In this document: positions 15,697 to 32,789 of the stretch, in pieces
Layout: every line of letters begins with the position of its first letter
Numbering within the stretch: position 1 is the stretch's first letter
Sequence record: PP400777
DNA length: 64,000 nt
Origin: Escherichia phage JM10
Reading direction: 5' to 3' (one strand)
Notes under the pieces: generated by a model
What the model was told of the DNA's origin: nothing
The model's database searches: none
Seen by the model: only the letters and a program-made list of their open reading frames with translations
Translations under genes and position numbers: made by a program

Positions 15697-15879
15697 TTAT
15701 AGTGAATTCACGTAGTCAATGAGTTCTTGTTCTTTCCTGTCAAATGATTCCATCAATGCGTGATATTCTTCGTCCGTCAAAGGAGCATATTCATCGTACG
15801 CATTGGTGGCTGCTTGTTCATCCAATAGGTCATGGATAAGTTCGAACAGTTTAGCTTTCTCTTCTTTAGTTAATTTCAT
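15697..15879 (-). CDS. hypothetical small acidic protein
   Basis: 60-aa ORF. Confidence 0.35.
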   Translation of the reverse strand: MKLTKEEKAKLFELIHDLLDEQAATNAYDEYAPLTDEEYHALMESFDRKEQELIDYVNSL

Positions 15880-16370
15880 TTAGGTTCCAAATCAACAATC
15901 ACAATTTCTAGTTTAGTGGAATACGTATCTAAAATCTCTTCGATGACATCCCAGTTTCCACCACCAATACCTGCACCAATTCTTGGCATATAAATTACAG
16001 GCTTTGTTATCTTATTCTTTCCGAATTCATTTAATTCTATTATACAATTCATTAAAGCAGAGTACTCAAAATTAGGTCCCGGCTCAAACTGTGTATAAAG
16101 ATTAAAGCAATAAGCTTTATGGGTCTTAAAATATTTTTCATAAACCGAATAAGACCCGAGTTTAGACTCATCTCCGAATTCGGTTTGAAGTTTATCGGCT
16201 TCCAGAATTTTTGGATAAGCCTTTGCTAATTGTCCTGCTACACCAGCGCCCATTGTATGAAAACAATTACACCCATGCGCAATATTATTACCTTTAGAAA
16301 ACAGGGCGACAATATCGCCCTTGATATAGTTTTTAATCACTTGCTGCAAGTCCTCTAGTATAAGAGTCAA
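15876..16370 (-). CDS. macro-domain-like protein (possible ADP-ribose binding/hydrolase)
   Basis: GCNCFHTMGAGVAGQL and IGAGIGGG glycine-rich motifs resemble macro-domain loops. Confidence 0.4.
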   Translation of the reverse strand: MTLILEDLQQVIKNYIKGDIVALFSKGNNIAHGCNCFHTMGAGVAGQLAKAYPKILEADKLQTEFGDESKLGSYSVYEKYFKTHKAYCFNLYTQFEPGPNFEYSALMNCIIELNEFGKNKITKPVIYMPRIGAGIGGGNWDVIEEILDTYSTKLEIVIVDLEPK

Positions 16371-16680: not shown

Positions 16681-17219
16681 TCTTTTATTTCCAGTAGTTT
16701 ATTTGATTTAAGGTAATTAGCCTTTTCTAGGACTTCAGAAGCATATTTACTTCCAGCACTTGTCTTCCATCCTGCATTATATGAGGATATAGCTTTTCTT
16801 ATATCCCCGTTATGTATATTTAACCAATAAGAAAATTCGATATAAGCCCATCTGGCTGAATTAGACCGCTTAGATAGCATTTTCTTAATTTGGGCATCAG
16901 TCATATTATAACCAAGCTGGTTAATTCTTGCCCTCATTGTCGGTAGATAATTTTGGAACATTCCATACGCATGGTGACCTTTCTTATCTTTAAGATTAAT
17001 ACCGGCAGATGATTCCTGCCATAGTATTGCGGCCATTATGTATCCAAGTCCTTTCTTATGCATATTTTCATGCGTTTTAAATTTTCCGTCCTTAGAAAAC
17101 TGTTCCCCAAACTGATAAGCATAATTCAAGTTATCGAGTTGGACATTACTAAAAGTATGCTCGGAGCTATGTGCTGATAATGAAAGAGCAAATAGACCAG
17201 CGAGTAGTGCTTTTCTCAT
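16677..17219 (-). CDS. secreted lytic transglycosylase-like protein
   Basis: signal peptide; WQESS and SYNAGW motifs typical of SLT domains. Confidence 0.5.
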   Translation of the reverse strand: MRKALLAGLFALSLSAHSSEHTFSNVQLDNLNYAYQFGEQFSKDGKFKTHENMHKKGLGYIMAAILWQESSAGINLKDKKGHHAYGMFQNYLPTMRARINQLGYNMTDAQIKKMLSKRSNSARWAYIEFSYWLNIHNGDIRKAISSYNAGWKTSAGSKYASEVLEKANYLKSNKLLEIKE

Positions 17220-17227
17220 GTTTACCT

Positions 17228-17686
17228 CTAGATTTTAATCACTGCTTTAGAAGCTTTTCCTGGTAGTCGTTTATTGTTAATAATAGCCATTCTGCATTGA
17301 AGAGACTTCATTTTGAATGCTGGATTTTCGCGACAAACTGTAAGTCCTAACCAAAGATTTCCATCAGTTATTTCTAAACGGCCTGGGCGATATTCGACAC
17401 CTTCGACAAAATCTTCATCAACATCTGGACGTGCCGGCATTGATAAAAATTCTGCAACTTCTTTAACATGATTTTTTACTTTATGAAATAATTCAAAAAC
17501 GTAATTCTCATCTATTTCTCTCTGGATGGCACGATCTAAGAGATGTTGAGAATACTTGATATGAAAGCCTGGTAGTCCAAGAGACTTTGCAGCATCTTTT
17601 ATACTGGCATTTATTTTGCGGAACTCCGTTTCAAAGATTCGACGGAGTTTATTACGGCGGATAAAAACGTCTGAATTGATAGTCAT
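17228..17686 (-). CDS. regB: RegB site-specific endoribonuclease
   Basis: 152 aa; close match to my recall of T4 RegB. Confidence 0.85.
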   Translation of the reverse strand: MTINSDVFIRRNKLRRIFETEFRKINASIKDAAKSLGLPGFHIKYSQHLLDRAIQREIDENYVFELFHKVKNHVKEVAEFLSMPARPDVDEDFVEGVEYRPGRLEITDGNLWLGLTVCRENPAFKMKSLQCRMAIINNKRLPGKASKAVIKI

Positions 17687-17714
17687 TTTGATTTCTCCTC
17701 TAGTTGACAGGTCT

Positions 17715-17743
17715 ATAGTAACACAACTAGAGGAGAAGTAAAC
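17715..17743 (-). promoter_or_regulatory. T4-type early promoter upstream of regB
   Basis: GTTTACttctcctctagttgtgtTACTAT. Confidence 0.45.
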
Positions 17744-17747
17744 TACT

Positions 17748-17963
17748 TTATTGATAAAATGGAGTTAAAGCCCAAGATTCTTTAGATACTATATTGGCGA
17801 AATGCCTCATCTCTTCGATTTGGCGACGACGCTGGTCAGCATAGTCTTCTTCGCCTTCTTCCTTACAATCTTCAAGGTCTTCTTCAAGATACTTTAAGTA
17901 TTCACTACAAATTTTGTTGACCTTTTCTTGAAAGTCCAATAACCCAGTAATAGTAGAAGCCAT
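17748..17963 (-). CDS. hypothetical small acidic protein (vs.3 position)
   Basis: 71-aa ORF. Confidence 0.4.
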   Translation of the reverse strand: MASTITGLLDFQEKVNKICSEYLKYLEEDLEDCKEEGEEDYADQRRRQIEEMRHFANIVSKESWALTPFYQ

Positions 17964-18239
17964 TAGTATTTTTCCTCAGGTCGAAATACTGCACGACATG
18001 CCCACATGCTGGCTTCTTTTAGATGTTGCTTAGCATACTTAAGAGCCTGCACTGCATCCATATCTTCTTTGGTTTGTTGCTCTGTTTCATTTTCTTTCAA
18101 GATATATGCTTCTTCAATCAGAGCATCAAACAACAATCCAAGACGGACTTCGGCATCTTTAATAGCGTTCACTTTACCGATTTTATCATCGGTATGCGGC
18201 TTGTAGCCTTTGATGTCTTCAATCGACATAAGGAATTTC
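17963..18239 (-). CDS. Acb2-like protein (T4 vs.4 position); candidate cyclic-nucleotide sponge
   Basis: 92 aa from MSIEDIK; position and size match T4 vs.4; assignment from recall only. Confidence 0.4.
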
Positions 18240-18443
18240 CTCATCAGTGGCAAGGTCATATTCGACCAATTGGATAGGCTCATTAATACCATATCCACGT
18301 ACAGTGATATCAGTTGACGGATATTTTCCAGTAATATCACCCGTTCTAAATGCTTCAATGAATGATTGCTCGCCTGAGCAACTAAACCAGGCGGCAAAAC
18401 ATTTTAAAACATCTTCAGACCCTTCTATAATCAATTTAGCCAT
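18219..18443 (-). CDS. hypothetical small protein
   Basis: 74-aa ORF. Confidence 0.4.
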   Translation of the reverse strand: MAKLIIEGSEDVLKCFAAWFSCSGEQSFIEAFRTGDITGKYPSTDITVRGYGINEPIQLVEYDLATDEEIPYVD

Positions 18444-18805
18444 TATAGACTCTCAGTAAAGGTACGAGCGATAACGTCGCGCTGCTGTTCCGGAGTCAGA
18501 GAGTTAAAGCGAACTGCATAACCGGATACACGGATGGTCAGCTGCGGATATTTTTCCGGATGCTTAACTGCATCTTCCAGAGTTTCACGACGCAGAACGT
18601 TAACGTTCAGATGTTGACCACCTTCAATTTTAACTTTAGGTTGATGTTCAATTTCAATTTCACGGGCATGCAAACCGTAGAAAATTTCCGGGTCTACAAT
18701 AGCGTCTTCTTTAAAAGTCTTAGAGACAATAATCCGGGCTTGAGTACCGTCTTCAAAATAAATAGTGCCTTTATGCGCACCTTCAAGAATTTGATATGCT
18801 TTCAT
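18443..18805 (-). CDS. autonomous glycyl-radical cofactor (GrcA/YfiD-like)
   Basis: C-terminal [25 protein letters not shown] is the pyruvate formate-lyase glycyl-radical signature. Confidence 0.75.
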
Positions 18806-18811
18806 ATAACC

Positions 18812-19183
18812 TCAATTAGAAAATAAATTTATCCAAGTTTTTTCTTTAATCAAAAATGGGTCGGAATTAAACGCCATTAAACTTTGAGTGATTAATCCCT
18901 TAAATGGCCCATCAATAAATTCCATTTTGAAATGCGGAATACTAGTCATCAACCGTGCATTAGGAGCAGTACAAAGAACCTGCTGCCCTGCGAACGGACC
19001 TTTAGTCAAACGATATCGTTTAGGTTTAAAATGGTAAATCTCGTAATTTTCTACAAGAGCCCTTTTATTGCATACTGGGCTGTTATAACAATATTCAAAA
19101 ACTTCAATAGTGGTCATCATTGCATTCCAATCACAAAAAATTGAGGACGAGCAATACCGCCGATGCAATATTTGCTTTTGCAA
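18812..19183 (-). CDS. hypothetical protein
   Basis: 123-aa ORF. Confidence 0.4.
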   Translation of the reverse strand: MQKQILHRRYCSSSIFCDWNAMMTTIEVFEYCYNSPVCNKRALVENYEIYHFKPKRYRLTKGPFAGQQVLCTAPNARLMTSIPHFKMEFIDGPFKGLITQSLMAFNSDPFLIKEKTWINLFSN

Positions 19184-19656
19184 CAGTGTTGGACTGTTTT
19201 AATATGGACATTGTAAATCTTATCCATATCAGGAGCTTTAATAGGCTCGTCAATTATGTACAGAATACGAGAAAGCGTTAATCCACGGAATTTAGAACCT
19301 TCATTGCCAATAAAACTACGAACAGAATCAGTAAATAAACGGAATCGAATATCATCGCTAGAATAACGAGAAAATTCTTTTTTAATGTTGCCAGCAGAAA
19401 TTTTAGCATAAGCTGAAGTATTAGAAAGAACAATAACAGTTCCGCCATCATACAACCAATTAGCAGCGAAGTTAGTCACAGCAATTGATTTACCTGATTG
19501 TCTGCCGCCGTCTAAACGAAGTGTACAGTACTGCTTGAGTACATCTTCAAATGGTGGGACATAACCGTTCTTACAAATTTCTTCTACTCTAGCATCAGAA
19601 TGGTGTGTAAAAGCATTCATCAGGGATAGATAAGGTCCAGTTAAAAATGTTCTCAT
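19117..19656 (-). CDS. hypothetical protein
   Basis: 179-aa ORF; start uncertain because of overlap with 18812..19183. Confidence 0.4.
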   Translation of the reverse strand: MRTFLTGPYLSLMNAFTHHSDARVEEICKNGYVPPFEDVLKQYCTLRLDGGRQSGKSIAVTNFAANWLYDGGTVIVLSNTSAYAKISAGNIKKEFSRYSSDDIRFRLFTDSVRSFIGNEGSKFRGLTLSRILYIIDEPIKAPDMDKIYNVHIKTVQHCCKSKYCIGGIARPQFFVIGMQ

Positions 19657-19769
19657 TTAGTTTCTCTTTTAGGTTGGGCCATTCCGTGGCGCATGAATTG
19701 TCCATTTCTGTATTTACCCCTCCAAGTAATTATGAATATACTATCACAATTCTAGGAGAAAGTAAACTG

Positions 19770-20072
19770 TTATTTACCTTTAATTACTTTAGCTGCTTCG
19801 ATAGCCGCTTGCTGAAGGTCATCCATAGACATACCGAATTTAGAAGCAAAGTTATCAATTTTCTTTTCGACAGCATTCAAAGGCTTTGCCTGTTTACCTT
19901 CATTAGCGCCAGGAAGAGCGAGAATACGCTCTTTGTCAATATAAAGGCTTACAAGTTTCTTACGGTCTTTATCGGACAAATCATGAAATGAATGGGCCTT
20001 TTTATTTATAGCGGCTTCTAATTTACCTGCACTCACTCGCGCTTCAGTAATAAATTCTTGATAGGTTTTCAT
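19770..20072 (-). CDS. ipII: internal protein (IpII-like) with capsid-targeting sequence
   Basis: N-terminal MKTYQEFITEA is the T4 capsid-targeting sequence (CTS); 100 aa. Confidence 0.6.
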   Translation of the reverse strand: MKTYQEFITEARVSAGKLEAAINKKAHSFHDLSDKDRKKLVSLYIDKERILALPGANEGKQAKPLNAVEKKIDNFASKFGMSMDDLQQAAIEAAKVIKGK

Positions 20073-20100
20073 GTGTTTCCTTGTTTGTTTTGATAGAGTA

Positions 20101-20130
20101 ATTATACCATATTAATACTTAAGCGTAAAC
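20101..20130 (-). promoter_or_regulatory. T4-type early promoter
   Basis: GTTTAC + 18 nt + TGgTATAAT. Confidence 0.5.
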
Positions 20131-20210
20131 CGTTTAAGCTTTACCGCCAGAAATAATTCCGAAGTTGTTAAAATCATATCCAATATCGTCAACATCTACT
20201 TTAGGACTTG

Positions 20211-20396
20211 CTACAACATAAGCAATTTCACTACGTTTTGCATAGGTGTTTTGATTTCTTTACCATCGCCACCTAAGAAAGAATACCCATTACGTTTTAA
20301 TGAGCCAAAGTCTTCCGCATCACCAATGAAAGCTTTAACTTTAAATTTAGGACCTTTGGCATCTGCTTCAACGATAAATTCTTGATACATTTTCAT
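20211..20396 (-). pseudogene. CTS-containing small internal-protein gene, apparently frameshifted
   Basis: MKMYQEFIVEA start; frame ends after 61 aa and continues in the +1 frame for about 28 more codons. Confidence 0.35.
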
Positions 20397-20563: not shown

Positions 20564-20845
20564 CTATTTTTCTGAAGCGCCTGAAATATATTTTTCAAGA
20601 CGTTGTTTCATCAGCGAGCCGTTCTTAGCAATTTCTTCCGGTTTATCGCACATACGCAACAAGGCTTCAAGCTTAACGATATCACTGGTGCGCTCAAATT
20701 TGCGAGTATCTATCTTACTAGCAAGTTCAGAAATACGTGCTAATAGACTTTCAGCTTCAACCAAAGCTGCACCTAGCTTAGTTGCAAATGTGTCAGTAGC
20801 TTCGTTAAGAATAGATTCTGATAAAAATTCACTATATGTTTTCAT
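20564..20845 (-). CDS. internal protein (IpIII-position) with capsid-targeting sequence
   Basis: [13 protein letters not shown]; directly upstream of e as ipIII is in T4. Confidence 0.55.
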
Positions 20846-21330
20846 ATATACGCTTTCCAAGTTCCTGTTTTAAATGTTGAGATTACGCGTTTCGCGCGAT
20901 TAGGTGTCTGACGATACCATTTAGATTGGGCTAGATTTACTGCCGCCTCGTCCCAACGTTTCTGTTGAAGCATACGAAGAGAATTAGTAAAACCGGCGAC
21001 GCCTGCTACACCCATTTGGAAGACCATATTGACCAATGCACATCGACGAACCGCATCTAAAGAATCATATACCGGTTTAAGTTTAGCATTACCCAAGATT
21101 CCGCGAACGGCTTTATCAACGTCTTCATTAAATAGCTTTTCAGCCTCATCAAGGGTAATTGTACCGTTGCATTTACGACCGATAATTCTGTCAAGTTCAG
21201 CTTTAGCTACGGCTAAAGACGGGTTCTTTGTTACTAAATGGCCTATGCCAATCGTCCAAAAGCCTTCAGTGTCTTTATATAAAGTCAGTCTAAGACCTTC
21301 GTCATTACGAAGCATTTCAAATATATTCAT
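20842..21330 (-). CDS. e: lysozyme (endolysin)
   Basis: [17 protein letters not shown]; strong match to my recall of T4 lysozyme. Confidence 0.9.
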
Positions 21331-28627: not shown

Positions 28628-29092
28628 TTATTTAATTTGTTTAGCAGACCAGATACGGTCTTTAATAAGTTTTTGGATATCTTCAACATACTCAAGGCTA
28701 TGAGCGTGAGGATTATCTTTGAAGCTATGTGCTCGTGCCAGTTTCTGGCCTTCTGTTTTGATTACTAAAAGCTCTTTAAGAATTGCTTCATACTTAGAAA
28801 TAATTCCTTTGGCGATATTTTTTTCTTGAGCTGCTTTAGGGTCTGCTTTTGGCGCAGGTGCTTTACCTGTAGCTTTCTGGAACAATTCACCTGATGCAGC
28901 TAGGCTTTTAAAAACTCGGCTAACAGTATTAGCATTAGTAAAACCTTCGGCTTTAAAATCTCTAATAAAACGGAAACGTTCTTCATCAGAGGCGTCTTTG
29001 TAAGAATATTTACCTGCTTGAATTGCTGCAATCGCAGCGGCTTTTACATCTGAACTAGATTGTTCAGTCAAAAATTCAGCGTATGATTTCAT
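28628..29092 (-). CDS. CTS-tagged candidate internal protein
   Basis: MKSYAEFLTE resembles the T4 capsid-targeting sequence; 154 aa. Confidence 0.5.
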   Translation of the reverse strand: MKSYAEFLTEQSSSDVKAAAIAAIQAGKYSYKDASDEERFRFIRDFKAEGFTNANTVSRVFKSLAASGELFQKATGKAPAPKADPKAAQEKNIAKGIISKYEAILKELLVIKTEGQKLARAHSFKDNPHAHSLEYVEDIQKLIKDRIWSAKQIK

Positions 29093-30946: not shown

Positions 30947-30976
30947 ACTATAACATAGTCCTACCATGATGTAAAC
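30947..30976 (-). promoter_or_regulatory. T4-type early promoter in a PeSL-like cassette
   Basis: GTTTAC + 18 nt + TGtTATAGT; TAGGACTA..TAGTCCTA palindrome. Confidence 0.5.
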
Positions 30977-31287
30977 TATTTTATGCCTTTAGATGAAATA
31001 GTATTCTGGCGTTTGACCCCAGTTTGTGAAAAATCATGGTTATCAATTTGGTCAACTCGCATAACACCAAATGCGGATTTAATTTTGGCTTTTGAACCTT
31101 TTTTGATACTAATTATCATATAAGTATCATTTTTCTTATATTCGAAATTTGTTACTTCAACGCCTTGATTAGAAATTGACTTAATAATAGCATTAGCGTA
31201 TTCATCATCTAACGGACCGGTGGTGTTAATAATAAAATTTTTATCGGCTTTAGTAGCTTCAGCGATAAACTCTTGATAGGTTTTCAT
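30976..31287 (-). CDS. CTS-tagged internal protein at the ipI locus
   Basis: MKTYQEFIAEA CTS; 103 aa; immediately downstream of 57B as ipI is in T4. Confidence 0.55.
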   Translation of the reverse strand: MKTYQEFIAEATKADKNFIINTTGPLDDEYANAIIKSISNQGVEVTNFEYKKNDTYMIISIKKGSKAKIKSAFGVMRVDQIDNHDFSQTGVKRQNTISSKGIK

Positions 31288-31364: not shown

Positions 31365-32050
<686 letters not shown>

Positions 32051-32054
32051 TTTA

Positions 32055-32789
32055 TTACCTTAAGATTGTTTCAATTTTAGAATAAAGCTCTTCTAAAGAG
32101 CCGTCGTTTGTAATAACTAAATCGCCTTCTTCAATAGGCAACCCAGCTTCTGTAATATGTTTATCAGTGGATTCCGTACCAGAGCGAACCACATGAATAA
32201 CTGTAGCACCCATCGCTCTAGCGGTTTCCATTTCATGGACTTGGCGTGTATCGGTTACAATATAGTAATCGAAATCACTTCCAATATAATCCATATAGTT
32301 TAATGCAAAAAGCTTAACCCAATACATACGGTCAAATAAATTAACGACAACATCCGTACCGAGGGCTTGCATAAGACGGCGGACTGACCATGTGTCGTTG
32401 ATATTATTTATAGCTTCACGCAGGACTTCATATGGTTTAATATCTAGATACGAATATCCGCCTTCTAACGATGATAATACTTTAACATTATTAATCGGTA
32501 AATATTGACTTTGCAAATAAATTAGCGCTTCTTCCAATAATTCAATAACATCCAACTTATTGAGATTTAATGGTGTTTCACGGTCATATCCAATGCCTTC
32601 AAAGTATTCGTATTTCAACTCTGTGAATACATCAGGATTTTCAGCATGCCTACGTCCCCAGGCTATTGCTAGAGCGTCTTTAATTGGATACGCTAATTGG
32701 TATTTTACGGATTTAAAGTTTGAATTGATGTAATCAGCAGTAGTGTCTTTACCGCTACGTTTGATGCCACTTAAAAAGATTAGCTCCAT
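32055..32789 (-). CDS. 1: deoxynucleoside monophosphate kinase
   Basis: LSGIKRSGKDT P-loop; matches T4 gp1. Confidence 0.85.
   Translation of the reverse strand: MELIFLSGIKRSGKDTTADYINSNFKSVKYQLAYPIKDALAIAWGRRHAENPDVFTELKYEYFEGIGYDRETPLNLNKLDVIELLEEALIYLQSQYLPINNVKVLSSLEGGYSYLDIKPYEVLREAINNINDTWSVRRLMQALGTDVVVNLFDRMYWVKLFALNYMDYIGSDFDYYIVTDTRQVHEMETARAMGATVIHVVRSGTESTDKHITEAGLPIEEGDLVITNDGSLEELYSKIETILR

What the first reader, a model, noticed from the sequence alone, without database searches (positions are those of the whole stretch)
17963..18239. vs.4-position small protein: candidate Acb2-like cyclic-nucleotide sponge
A 92-aa ORF two genes upstream of regB matches the position and size of T4 vs.4, which has been reported as the anti-CBASS sponge Acb2. 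The call rests on synteny and recalled sequence only.
Basis: inference. Interest (0 to 1): 0.45.

Follow-up and report, generated by a model that had tools for sequence, protein, structure and literature searches.

The report
RB69-type Acb2 anti-CBASS nucleotide sponge

Summary
The gene is real. It runs 17963..18229 on the minus strand and encodes 88 aa, not 92.

The window is a Mosigvirus (RB69-like T-even phage) with the T4 gene order vs.5 / vs.4 / vs.3 / regB.

- **Homology:** the protein is about 65% identical to T4 Vs.4 (Acb2), solved with cGAMP as PDB 7UQ2 (E 1e-30). It passes Pfam PF24729 (Acb2/Tad1 hairpin) at 65.7 bits against a cutoff of 27.
- **Functional residues:** every T4 residue shown to contact cGAMP is kept (Y8, H11, K23, S74, R79, F82). 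So is every residue shown to hold the hexamer together (L29, F33, A66, A73, A77).
- **Fold:** the predicted helical hairpin has 7UQ2 as its best match in the PDB.
- **Database status:** the identical protein lies on 172 public contigs, and UniRef already names it an Acb2/Tad1 hairpin protein.

It most likely forms a hexamer that sequesters cyclic dinucleotides and so blunts CBASS, working alongside Acb1 (31365..31820).

One feature is mildly new. The middle of the protein (aa 37-65) is only 18% identical to T4, and related phages exchange it as a cassette. Its significance is unknown. No binding was tested.

The parts
17963..18229 (-). acb2 (vs.4 orthologue) CDS, 88 aa plus stop TAA
   Evidence: Searches give the ORF and frame. 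PDB 7UQ2 matches at E 1e-30 and Pfam PF24729 at 65.7 bits.
18238..18242 (-). Shine-Dalgarno-like GAGGA, 8 nt upstream of the ATG at 18229. It lies inside the 3' end of the vs.5-like gene.
   Evidence: Read directly from the sequence.
18122..18229 (-). Codons 1-36: N-terminal arm and start of helix 1. Carries Y9, H12, T13, K24 (ligand contacts) and L30, F34 (hexamer contacts).
   Evidence: 33 of 36 residues identical to T4. Y9, H12 and K24 are invariant in 55 homologues. dN/dS is 0.03-0.13. Residue roles come from PMC10097602.
18035..18121 (-). Codons 37-65: variable middle (end of helix 1, hairpin tip, start of helix 2). It includes the positions that line the cyclic-trinucleotide pocket in PaMx33 Acb2.
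   Evidence: 5 of 28 residues identical to T4. dN is 0.7-1.9 with dS saturated. It is exchanged as a cassette between phages that share a backbone.
17966..18034 (-). Codons 66-88: C-terminal half of helix 2 and C-terminal arm. Carries A66, A73, A77 (hexamer contacts) and S74, R79, F82 (ligand contacts).
   Evidence: 20 of 23 residues identical to T4. A66, S74, R79 and F82 are invariant.
18219..18443 (-). vs.5-like gene. Its 3' end overlaps the acb2 start by 11 nt.
   Evidence: 69% aa identity to T4 vs.5.
17748..17963 (-). vs.3-like gene. Its ATG shares one base with the acb2 stop (TAATG).
17228..17686 (-). regB endoribonuclease, the synteny anchor
   Evidence: Pfam REGB_T4 at 233 bits.
31365..31820 (-). 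acb1 (T4 57B orthologue), the second anti-CBASS gene of this phage. It is a cyclic-nucleotide phosphodiesterase.
   Evidence: PDB 7T26 Acb1 at E 1.1e-58. Pfam PF23474 Acb1 at 197 bits.

Best explanation
The gene encodes the Mosigvirus (RB69-type) orthologue of T4 Vs.4/Acb2, an anti-CBASS sponge.

Inferred mechanism, by homology to T4 Vs.4:
- Each 88-aa chain folds into a two-helix hairpin with short N- and C-terminal arms.
- Six chains interlock into a hexamer.
- Each of three dimer interfaces forms a pocket that holds one cyclic dinucleotide, such as 3',3'-cGAMP and probably other CDNs.
- In that pocket the bases would stack on Tyr9 and Phe82, and the ligand's remaining hydrogen bonds and salt bridges would come from His12, Lys24, Ser74 and Arg79.
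- The ligand is held, not degraded. Free signal therefore stays below the level needed to switch on CBASS effectors, and the phage completes its cycle.

Like T4 Acb2, it probably does not bind cyclic trinucleotides. It acts beside Acb1, which this phage also encodes and which destroys such signals.

Shown here: homology, conserved residues, predicted fold, purifying selection and synteny. Inferred: hexamer formation, ligand binding and CBASS inhibition.
For: - **Sequence homology:** 7UQ2 (Vs.4 with cGAMP) at E 9.8e-31, about 65% identity end to end. Pfam PF24729 at 65.7 bits against a cutoff of 27. PHROG 717 at E 3.6e-28. A family profile hits PaMx33 Acb2 at E 5e-5, and hhalign gives 85% probability, E 6e-6.
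- **Conserved residues:** 12 of 12 functionally tested T4 residues are kept: Y8, H11, T12, K23, L29, F33, A66, A73, S74, A77, R79, F82. Mapping is and roles. Of these, Y9, H12, K24, A66, S74, R79 and F82 are invariant across 55 homologues; T13, L30, A73 and A77 are at least 90% conserved.
- **Selection and context:** dN/dS is 0.03-0.13 in both arms. The T4 gene order is kept, and 39 of 47 T4-like loci have regB downstream.
- **No trinucleotide site:** T4 Acb2 binds CDNs but not cA3/cAAG. The residues matching PaMx33 R67 and T74 are Q61 and Q68 here. The PaMx33 kink motif E-P-G has no counterpart, and helix 2 is predicted continuous.
- **Partner gene:** Acb1 is present in the same window.
Against: - No binding, oligomer or infection data exist for this allele. 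I found no paper that mentions both Acb2 and RB69. The allele is not among the proteins tested by Hadary et al..
- The middle third of the protein is only 18% identical to T4. Affinity and ligand range could therefore differ.
- The hexamer could not be modelled with the tools available.
Confidence: 0.9

Rival explanations
1. The protein is an Acb2-family sponge with an altered or wider ligand range than T4 Acb2. The remodelled middle segment would open or re-line the three-fold pocket, letting it bind a second class of signal (a cyclic trinucleotide or another nucleotide) in addition to CDNs.
For: - The six T4 positions discussed for the cA3 pocket all differ: Y37I, A57M, L60V, D61Q, T64K, T68Q.
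- The acidic D61 of T4 is lost, and a Lys (K64) and a Tyr (Y65) appear at the positions matching PaMx33 A70 and I71.
- The middle segment is swapped as a cassette between phages whose backbone is otherwise 93% identical overall (95-100% in the immediate flanks). The same middle is 100% identical between genera.
- Acb2 relatives are known to differ in ligand range, including a Thoeris 3'cADPR binder.
Against: - Neither PaMx33 R67 nor T74 is matched: the residues here are Q61 and Q68.
- There is no Pro/Gly kink motif, and helix 2 is predicted continuous. In T4 that geometry blocks cA3 even after the D61R change.
- The middle evolves near neutrally, with dN/dS about 0.5-1 and dS saturated. That fits a scaffold under loose constraint as well as it fits adaptation.
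Confidence: 0.08
2. The gene is a decayed or inactive allele, like the T2 or PaMx41 acb2 variants. Such an allele might be kept because losing sponge activity avoids Panoptes-type decoy sensing.
For: Natural loss alleles exist. The literature reports T2 and PaMx41. In my loci, L043 has a frameshifted C terminus and L050 is cut short at 74 aa.
Against: - The ORF is intact and of full length, and all ligand and hexamer residues are conserved.
- Both arms are under strong purifying selection.
- The identical protein is found on 172 contigs.
Confidence: 0.02

Closest known systems
T4 Vs.4 / Acb2 (PDB 7UQ2; Jenson et al. 2023, PMC10097602)
   Same: - Same locus: vs.5 / vs.4 / vs.3 / regB.
- Same length, 88 aa, and about 65% identity.
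- 92% identity in the N arm and 87% in the C arm.
- All cGAMP-contact and hexamer residues are identical.
- Same predicted hairpin fold.
- Acb1 is also present in the genome.
   Different: - The middle 28 aligned positions are only 18% identical.
- There is one extra residue (Ser2) at the N terminus and one fewer in the middle.
- The positions lining the three-fold axis are Q61/K64/Y65/Q68 instead of D61/T64/I65/T68.
- This allele has no biochemistry.
Pseudomonas phage PaMx33 Acb2 (PDB 8H2J, 8IXZ; Huiting 2023, Cao 2023, PMC10312549)
   Same: - The CDN-pocket Tyr and Lys align: Y9 with Y11, and K24 with K26.
- R79 aligns with R85, and P84 with P90.
   Different: - About 25% identity (hhalign).
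- PaMx33 has a second pocket for cyclic trinucleotides, built from R67 and T74 and a helix kink at E64-P65-G66.
- Here those positions are Q61 and Q68, and there is no kink motif.
Acb2_43 and other Thoeris-inhibiting Acb2 homologues (Hadary et al. 2025 preprint)
   Same: Same family, with a hexameric hairpin architecture.
   Different: - Acb2_43 has extra terminal beta-strands and binds 3'cADPR through L6, V7, H5, K19 and K55. It did not inhibit CBASS.
- The window's protein keeps the T4-type CDN pocket instead.
Tad1 (Thoeris anti-defence sponge)
   Same: It shares the Pfam hairpin domain PF24729 and the sponge principle.
   Different: It belongs to a different family with different ligands. 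No direct sequence match to Tad1 was seen here.
Acb1 (T4 57B; PDB 7T26)
   Same: Same target pathway (CBASS signals), and it is encoded in the same window.
   Different: It is an enzyme that cleaves the signals. It has an unrelated fold and works by a different mechanism.

Membership tests
Acb2 (anti-CBASS 2) sponge family | Significant sequence similarity to an experimentally characterised Acb2 | tested here: met
   T4 Vs.4 (7UQ2) at E 9.8e-31 and about 65% identity. A family profile reaches PaMx33 Acb2 at E 5e-5, and hhalign gives E 6e-6.
Acb2 (anti-CBASS 2) sponge family | Match to Pfam PF24729 (Acb2/Tad1 hairpin) above the gathering score, and to PHROG 717 | tested here: met
   65.7 bits against a cutoff of 27, covering profile positions 1-58 of 58. 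PHROG 717 at E 3.6e-28.
Acb2 (anti-CBASS 2) sponge family | Protomer of about 90 aa, built as two long antiparallel helices with short N and C arms | tested here: met
   AF2 pLDDT 86.7, with helices 14-41 and 50-81. 7UQ2 is the best PDB match. The fold is generic, so this counts as weak support.
Acb2 (anti-CBASS 2) sponge family | Cyclic-dinucleotide pocket residues (T4 Y8, H11, K23, S74, R79, F82; PaMx33 Y11, K26) | tested here: met
   Y9, H12, K24, S74, R79 and F82 are all present and invariant in 55 homologues.
Acb2 (anti-CBASS 2) sponge family | Hexamer-interface residues (T4 L29, F33, A66, A73, A77) | tested here: met
   L30, F34, A66, A73 and A77 are present.
Acb2 (anti-CBASS 2) sponge family | Forms a hexamer | not testable with these tools
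   Only single-chain prediction was available. This needs AF-multimer, SEC-MALS or AUC.
Acb2 (anti-CBASS 2) sponge family | Binds 3',3'-cGAMP or other CDNs without cleaving them, and inhibits CBASS | not testable with these tools
   This needs ITC, a CapV assay and phage genetics.
Acb2 subgroup with a cyclic-trinucleotide pocket (PaMx33/JBD67 type) | The equivalents of R67 and T74, plus the helix kink (E64-P65-G66) that opens the three-fold pocket | tested here: not met
   The equivalents are Q61 and Q68. There is no Pro/Gly, and helix 2 is predicted continuous. T4 Acb2 has the same geometry and does not bind cA3.

The most novel reading that the evidence does not exclude
The RB69-type middle segment (aa 37-65) may be a functional module rather than a mere scaffold. 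It is swapped as a cassette between T-even genera and re-lines the three-fold axis with Q61/K64/Y65/Q68. On this reading it changes what the hexamer binds, or how host sensors recognise it, and gives this allele a ligand range or an evasion property that T4 Acb2 lacks.
Probability: 0.08. Interest if true: 0.45.

Novelty: already known. Interest (0 to 1): 0.15.

Why it matters
It confirms that this Mosigvirus carries both known anti-CBASS genes, the sponge Acb2 and the nuclease Acb1. That is useful for annotation, because most GenBank phage records still call this gene 'hypothetical protein'. It also helps predict host range on CBASS-carrying strains and, conversely, sensitivity to Panoptes-type systems that are triggered by Acb2.

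The cassette-like exchange of the middle of the protein gives a cheap set of natural variants. These could be used to ask whether that segment tunes ligand range.

It does not open a new question.

Tried and rejected
- **Promoter and terminator scan, 17000-20300:** counts were no higher than in shuffled sequence.
- **T4 promoter motifs:** the late-promoter (TATAAATA) and MotA-box motifs are enriched in the window as a whole. None lies on the minus strand between 18230 and 19700. No dedicated acb2 promoter could be assigned, so the gene seems to be read as part of the close-packed vs.8-to-vs.3 run.
- **NCBIfam:** no family matched either Acb2 or Acb1.
- **Fold search as an independent test:** 7UQ2 ranks first, but hundreds of unrelated helical hairpins score nearly as well. 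I do not count it as independent proof.
- **Positive selection in the middle segment:** dS is saturated in between-type comparisons, so dN/dS near or above 1 cannot be interpreted.
- **Literature:** a search for Acb2 together with RB69 found nothing. The tested set of Hadary et al. does not contain this allele. Their larger homologue table is truncated in the held copy, so absence from it proves nothing.
- **ATG at 18244 as the start (93 aa):** rejected. It has no Shine-Dalgarno sequence, it overlaps the SD of the 18229 start, and no homologue aligned or annotated here has such an extension.

Full report
**What is in the sequence.** The stretch 17963-18239 lies inside a run of abutting minus-strand genes. 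The purely mechanical ORF is 17963..18397 (144 aa from a TTG).

ATG 18229 is preceded by GAGGA 8 nt upstream. The homologues aligned start M(S/A)IEDIKGY or MIEDIKGY. The annotated orthologues in Escherichia phage vB_EcoM_G2285 and in T4T (gene vs.4) are both 267 nt, 88 aa.

The gene is therefore 17963..18229 (-), 88 aa. The upstream vs.5-like gene overlaps its start by 11 nt. Its stop shares one base with the ATG of the vs.3-like gene (TAATG).

**Where the window comes from.** The 1-kb region around the gene is 99% identical to vB_EcoM_G2285, a Mosigvirus (Straboviridae, Tevenvirinae). The gene order is tk, a macro-domain gene, vs, vs.1, regB, vs.3, vs.4, vs.5, vs.6, vs.7, vs.8, as in T4. regB is confirmed by Pfam at 233 bits. 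Of 47 T4-like loci fetched from IMG/VR and GenBank, 39 keep regB and vs.1 just downstream of the homologue.

**Identity of the protein.**
- phmmer against all PDB sequences gives one significant hit, 7UQ2, 'Vs.4' of T4 in complex with cGAMP (E 9.8e-31, residues 3-88).
- Pfam gives PF24729, the Acb2/Tad1 hairpin domain, at 65.7 bits against a gathering score of 27, covering the whole profile.
- PHROGs gives phrog_717 at E 3.6e-28. This is the group Jenson et al. used to collect Vs.4 homologues (PMC10097602).
- A profile of 55 homologues also reaches Pseudomonas phage PaMx33 Acb2 (8H2J, 8IXZ) at E 5e-5, end to end. hhalign gives 85% probability and E 6e-6.
- The identical 88-aa sequence is already on 172 public contigs. 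UniRef labels it 'Acb2/Tad1 hairpin domain-containing protein, Mosigvirus', and RB69 Vs.4 falls in the same 90% cluster.
- In GenBank phage records it is mostly 'hypothetical protein'.

**Functional residues.** Jenson et al. showed several things for T4 Vs.4.
- It is a hexamer holding three cGAMP molecules, with a Kd of about 30 nM.
- Y8 and F82 stack on the bases.
- Y8, H11, K23 and R79 make the hydrogen bonds and salt bridges.
- Mutations at Y8 and F82 abolish inhibition of CapV, and so do mutations at the hexamer-interface residues L29, A66, A73 and A77. F33A destabilises the hexamer.
- The screen mutations T12I, S74N and A77I also destroy activity.

I mapped these residues by pairwise alignment. 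All twelve are identical here: Y9, H12, T13, K24, L30, F34, A66, A73, S74, A77, R79 and F82. In the 55-sequence alignment, Y9, H12, K24, A66, S74, R79 and F82 are invariant, and T13, L30, A73 and A77 are at least 90% conserved. PaMx33 Y11 and K26, which are essential for CDN binding, align with Y9 and K24.

**Modular divergence.** Identity to T4 is 33/36 in residues 1-36, 5/28 in the middle, and 20/23 in residues 66-88.

Codon analysis against 38 other distinct alleles gave these results.
- dN/dS is about 0.03-0.13 in both arms.
- In the middle, dN is 0.7-1.9 with saturated dS, so the ratio of roughly 0.5 to above 1 cannot be interpreted.

The middle thus evolves almost freely in sequence and in length (81-98 aa among the database homologues) while staying helical.

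The middle includes the positions that Cao et al. tie to cyclic-trinucleotide binding. PaMx33 R67 and T74 correspond to T4 D61 and T68. T4 Acb2 binds the same CDNs as PaMx33 Acb2 but not cA3 or cAAG, even after the D61R change, because its helix is not kinked (PMC10312549). Here those positions are Q61 and Q68. The E-P-G kink motif of PaMx33 has no counterpart, and helix 2 is predicted continuous. I therefore expect a CDN-only sponge like T4's. The neighbouring changes (T64K, I65Y, and loss of Asp61) leave room for a difference that only experiment can settle.

**Cassette exchange, seen in passing.** Three IMG/VR genomes carry this allele at 93-100% nucleotide identity across window 17960-18220 only: L005, L006 and L008. 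L006 has the contig length of vB_EcoM_VR26. UniRef places the 87-aa form of this allele, carried by VR25 and VR7, in Gaprivervirus. Their flanks are 40-70% identical at the DNA level and 38-66% at the protein level.

L005 and L023 share a backbone that is 93% identical over 4.9 kb and 95-100% identical in the immediate flanks. Identity drops to 42-45% only across L005 positions 2600-2704, roughly codons 35-69 of acb2. The middle segment is thus swapped between phages, with the breakpoints in the conserved arms. T-even genomes are well known to be mosaic (my own knowledge), so this is a modest observation. I cannot say whether it is adaptive.

**Context.** The same window encodes Acb1, the T4 57B orthologue, at 31365..31820 (-). 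It matches PDB 7T26 at E 1.1e-58 and Pfam Acb1 at 197 bits. Cao et al. note that T4 likewise carries both.

Carrying Acb2 has a known cost. The Panoptes system is triggered when Acb2 soaks up its decoy, 2',3'-c-di-AMP. T4 escapers lose acb2, and T2 carries a mutation that probably disrupts the CDN site (PMC12657218). Two of my loci carry broken alleles, L043 (frameshifted C terminus) and L050 (74 aa). The window's allele is intact.

A transcriptome atlas reports middle/late expression for T4 acb1 and acb2. I found no dedicated promoter signal upstream of this gene.

**Verdict.** The gene is the RB69-type orthologue of a characterised anti-CBASS sponge, and UniRef (with Pfam) already labels it so. 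Novelty is 'already known' and interest is low. Hexamer formation, ligand binding and CBASS inhibition by this allele are inferred, not shown.

Noticed in passing
window 31365..31820 (-): Acb1 (T4 gene 57B orthologue), the anti-CBASS cyclic-nucleotide phosphodiesterase, lies just upstream of a 244-aa ORF (32055..32789). It matches PDB 7T26 at E 1.1e-58 and Pfam PF23474 at 197 bits. The phage therefore carries both known anti-CBASS genes.
   Followed up: partly
window 17960-18220; loci L005, L006, L008, L023: The acb2 allele is 93-100% identical at the DNA level to the allele in VR7/VR25/VR26-like phages, whose flanks are only 40-70% identical. Two phages sharing a backbone that is 93% identical over 4.9 kb (95-100% in the immediate flanks; L005 and L023) differ only in the middle of acb2, where identity is 42-45%. 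The hairpin-tip segment is exchanged as a cassette.
   Followed up: yes
L043:2501-2788 and L050:2501-2725: These are naturally broken acb2 alleles. L043 has a frameshifted C terminus that loses R79 and F82. L050 stops after 74 aa. This is consistent with the published idea that some hosts select against an active sponge.
   Followed up: no
window 19770..20072, 20211..20396, 20564..20860, 28628..29092, 30976..31287 (all -): Several small ORFs begin with near-identical N termini (MKTYQEFI.., MKMYQEFI.., MKTYSEFL.., MKSYAEFL..). From memory, this resembles the capsid-targeting leader of T4 internal proteins. It was not tested.
   Followed up: no
window 15876..16370 (-): A macro-domain protein (Pfam Macro, 27.6 bits against a cutoff of 22) sits in the position of T4 tk.4. 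Such domains act on ADP-ribose derivatives. Its role here is unknown.
   Followed up: no
window 18443..18805 (-): The vs.6-like gene, two genes upstream of acb2, encodes a glycyl-radical domain protein (Pfam Gly_radical, 67 bits). Many phage records annotate it as the autonomous glycyl radical cofactor GrcA. It is absent from many related loci.
   Followed up: no
whole window: The T4 late-promoter motif TATAAATA occurs 16 times against 7.9 expected. The MotA-box motif WWTGCTTYA occurs 28 times against 9.8 expected. Both are enriched, as expected for a T4-type transcription programme.
   Followed up: no
loci L046, L048, L049, L051-L082: 35 distant Acb2 homologues (31-41% identity) lie on contigs of 4-78 kb, most of them 5-55 kb. 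They have none of the T4 neighbour genes, so the family extends well beyond T-even phages.
   Followed up: no
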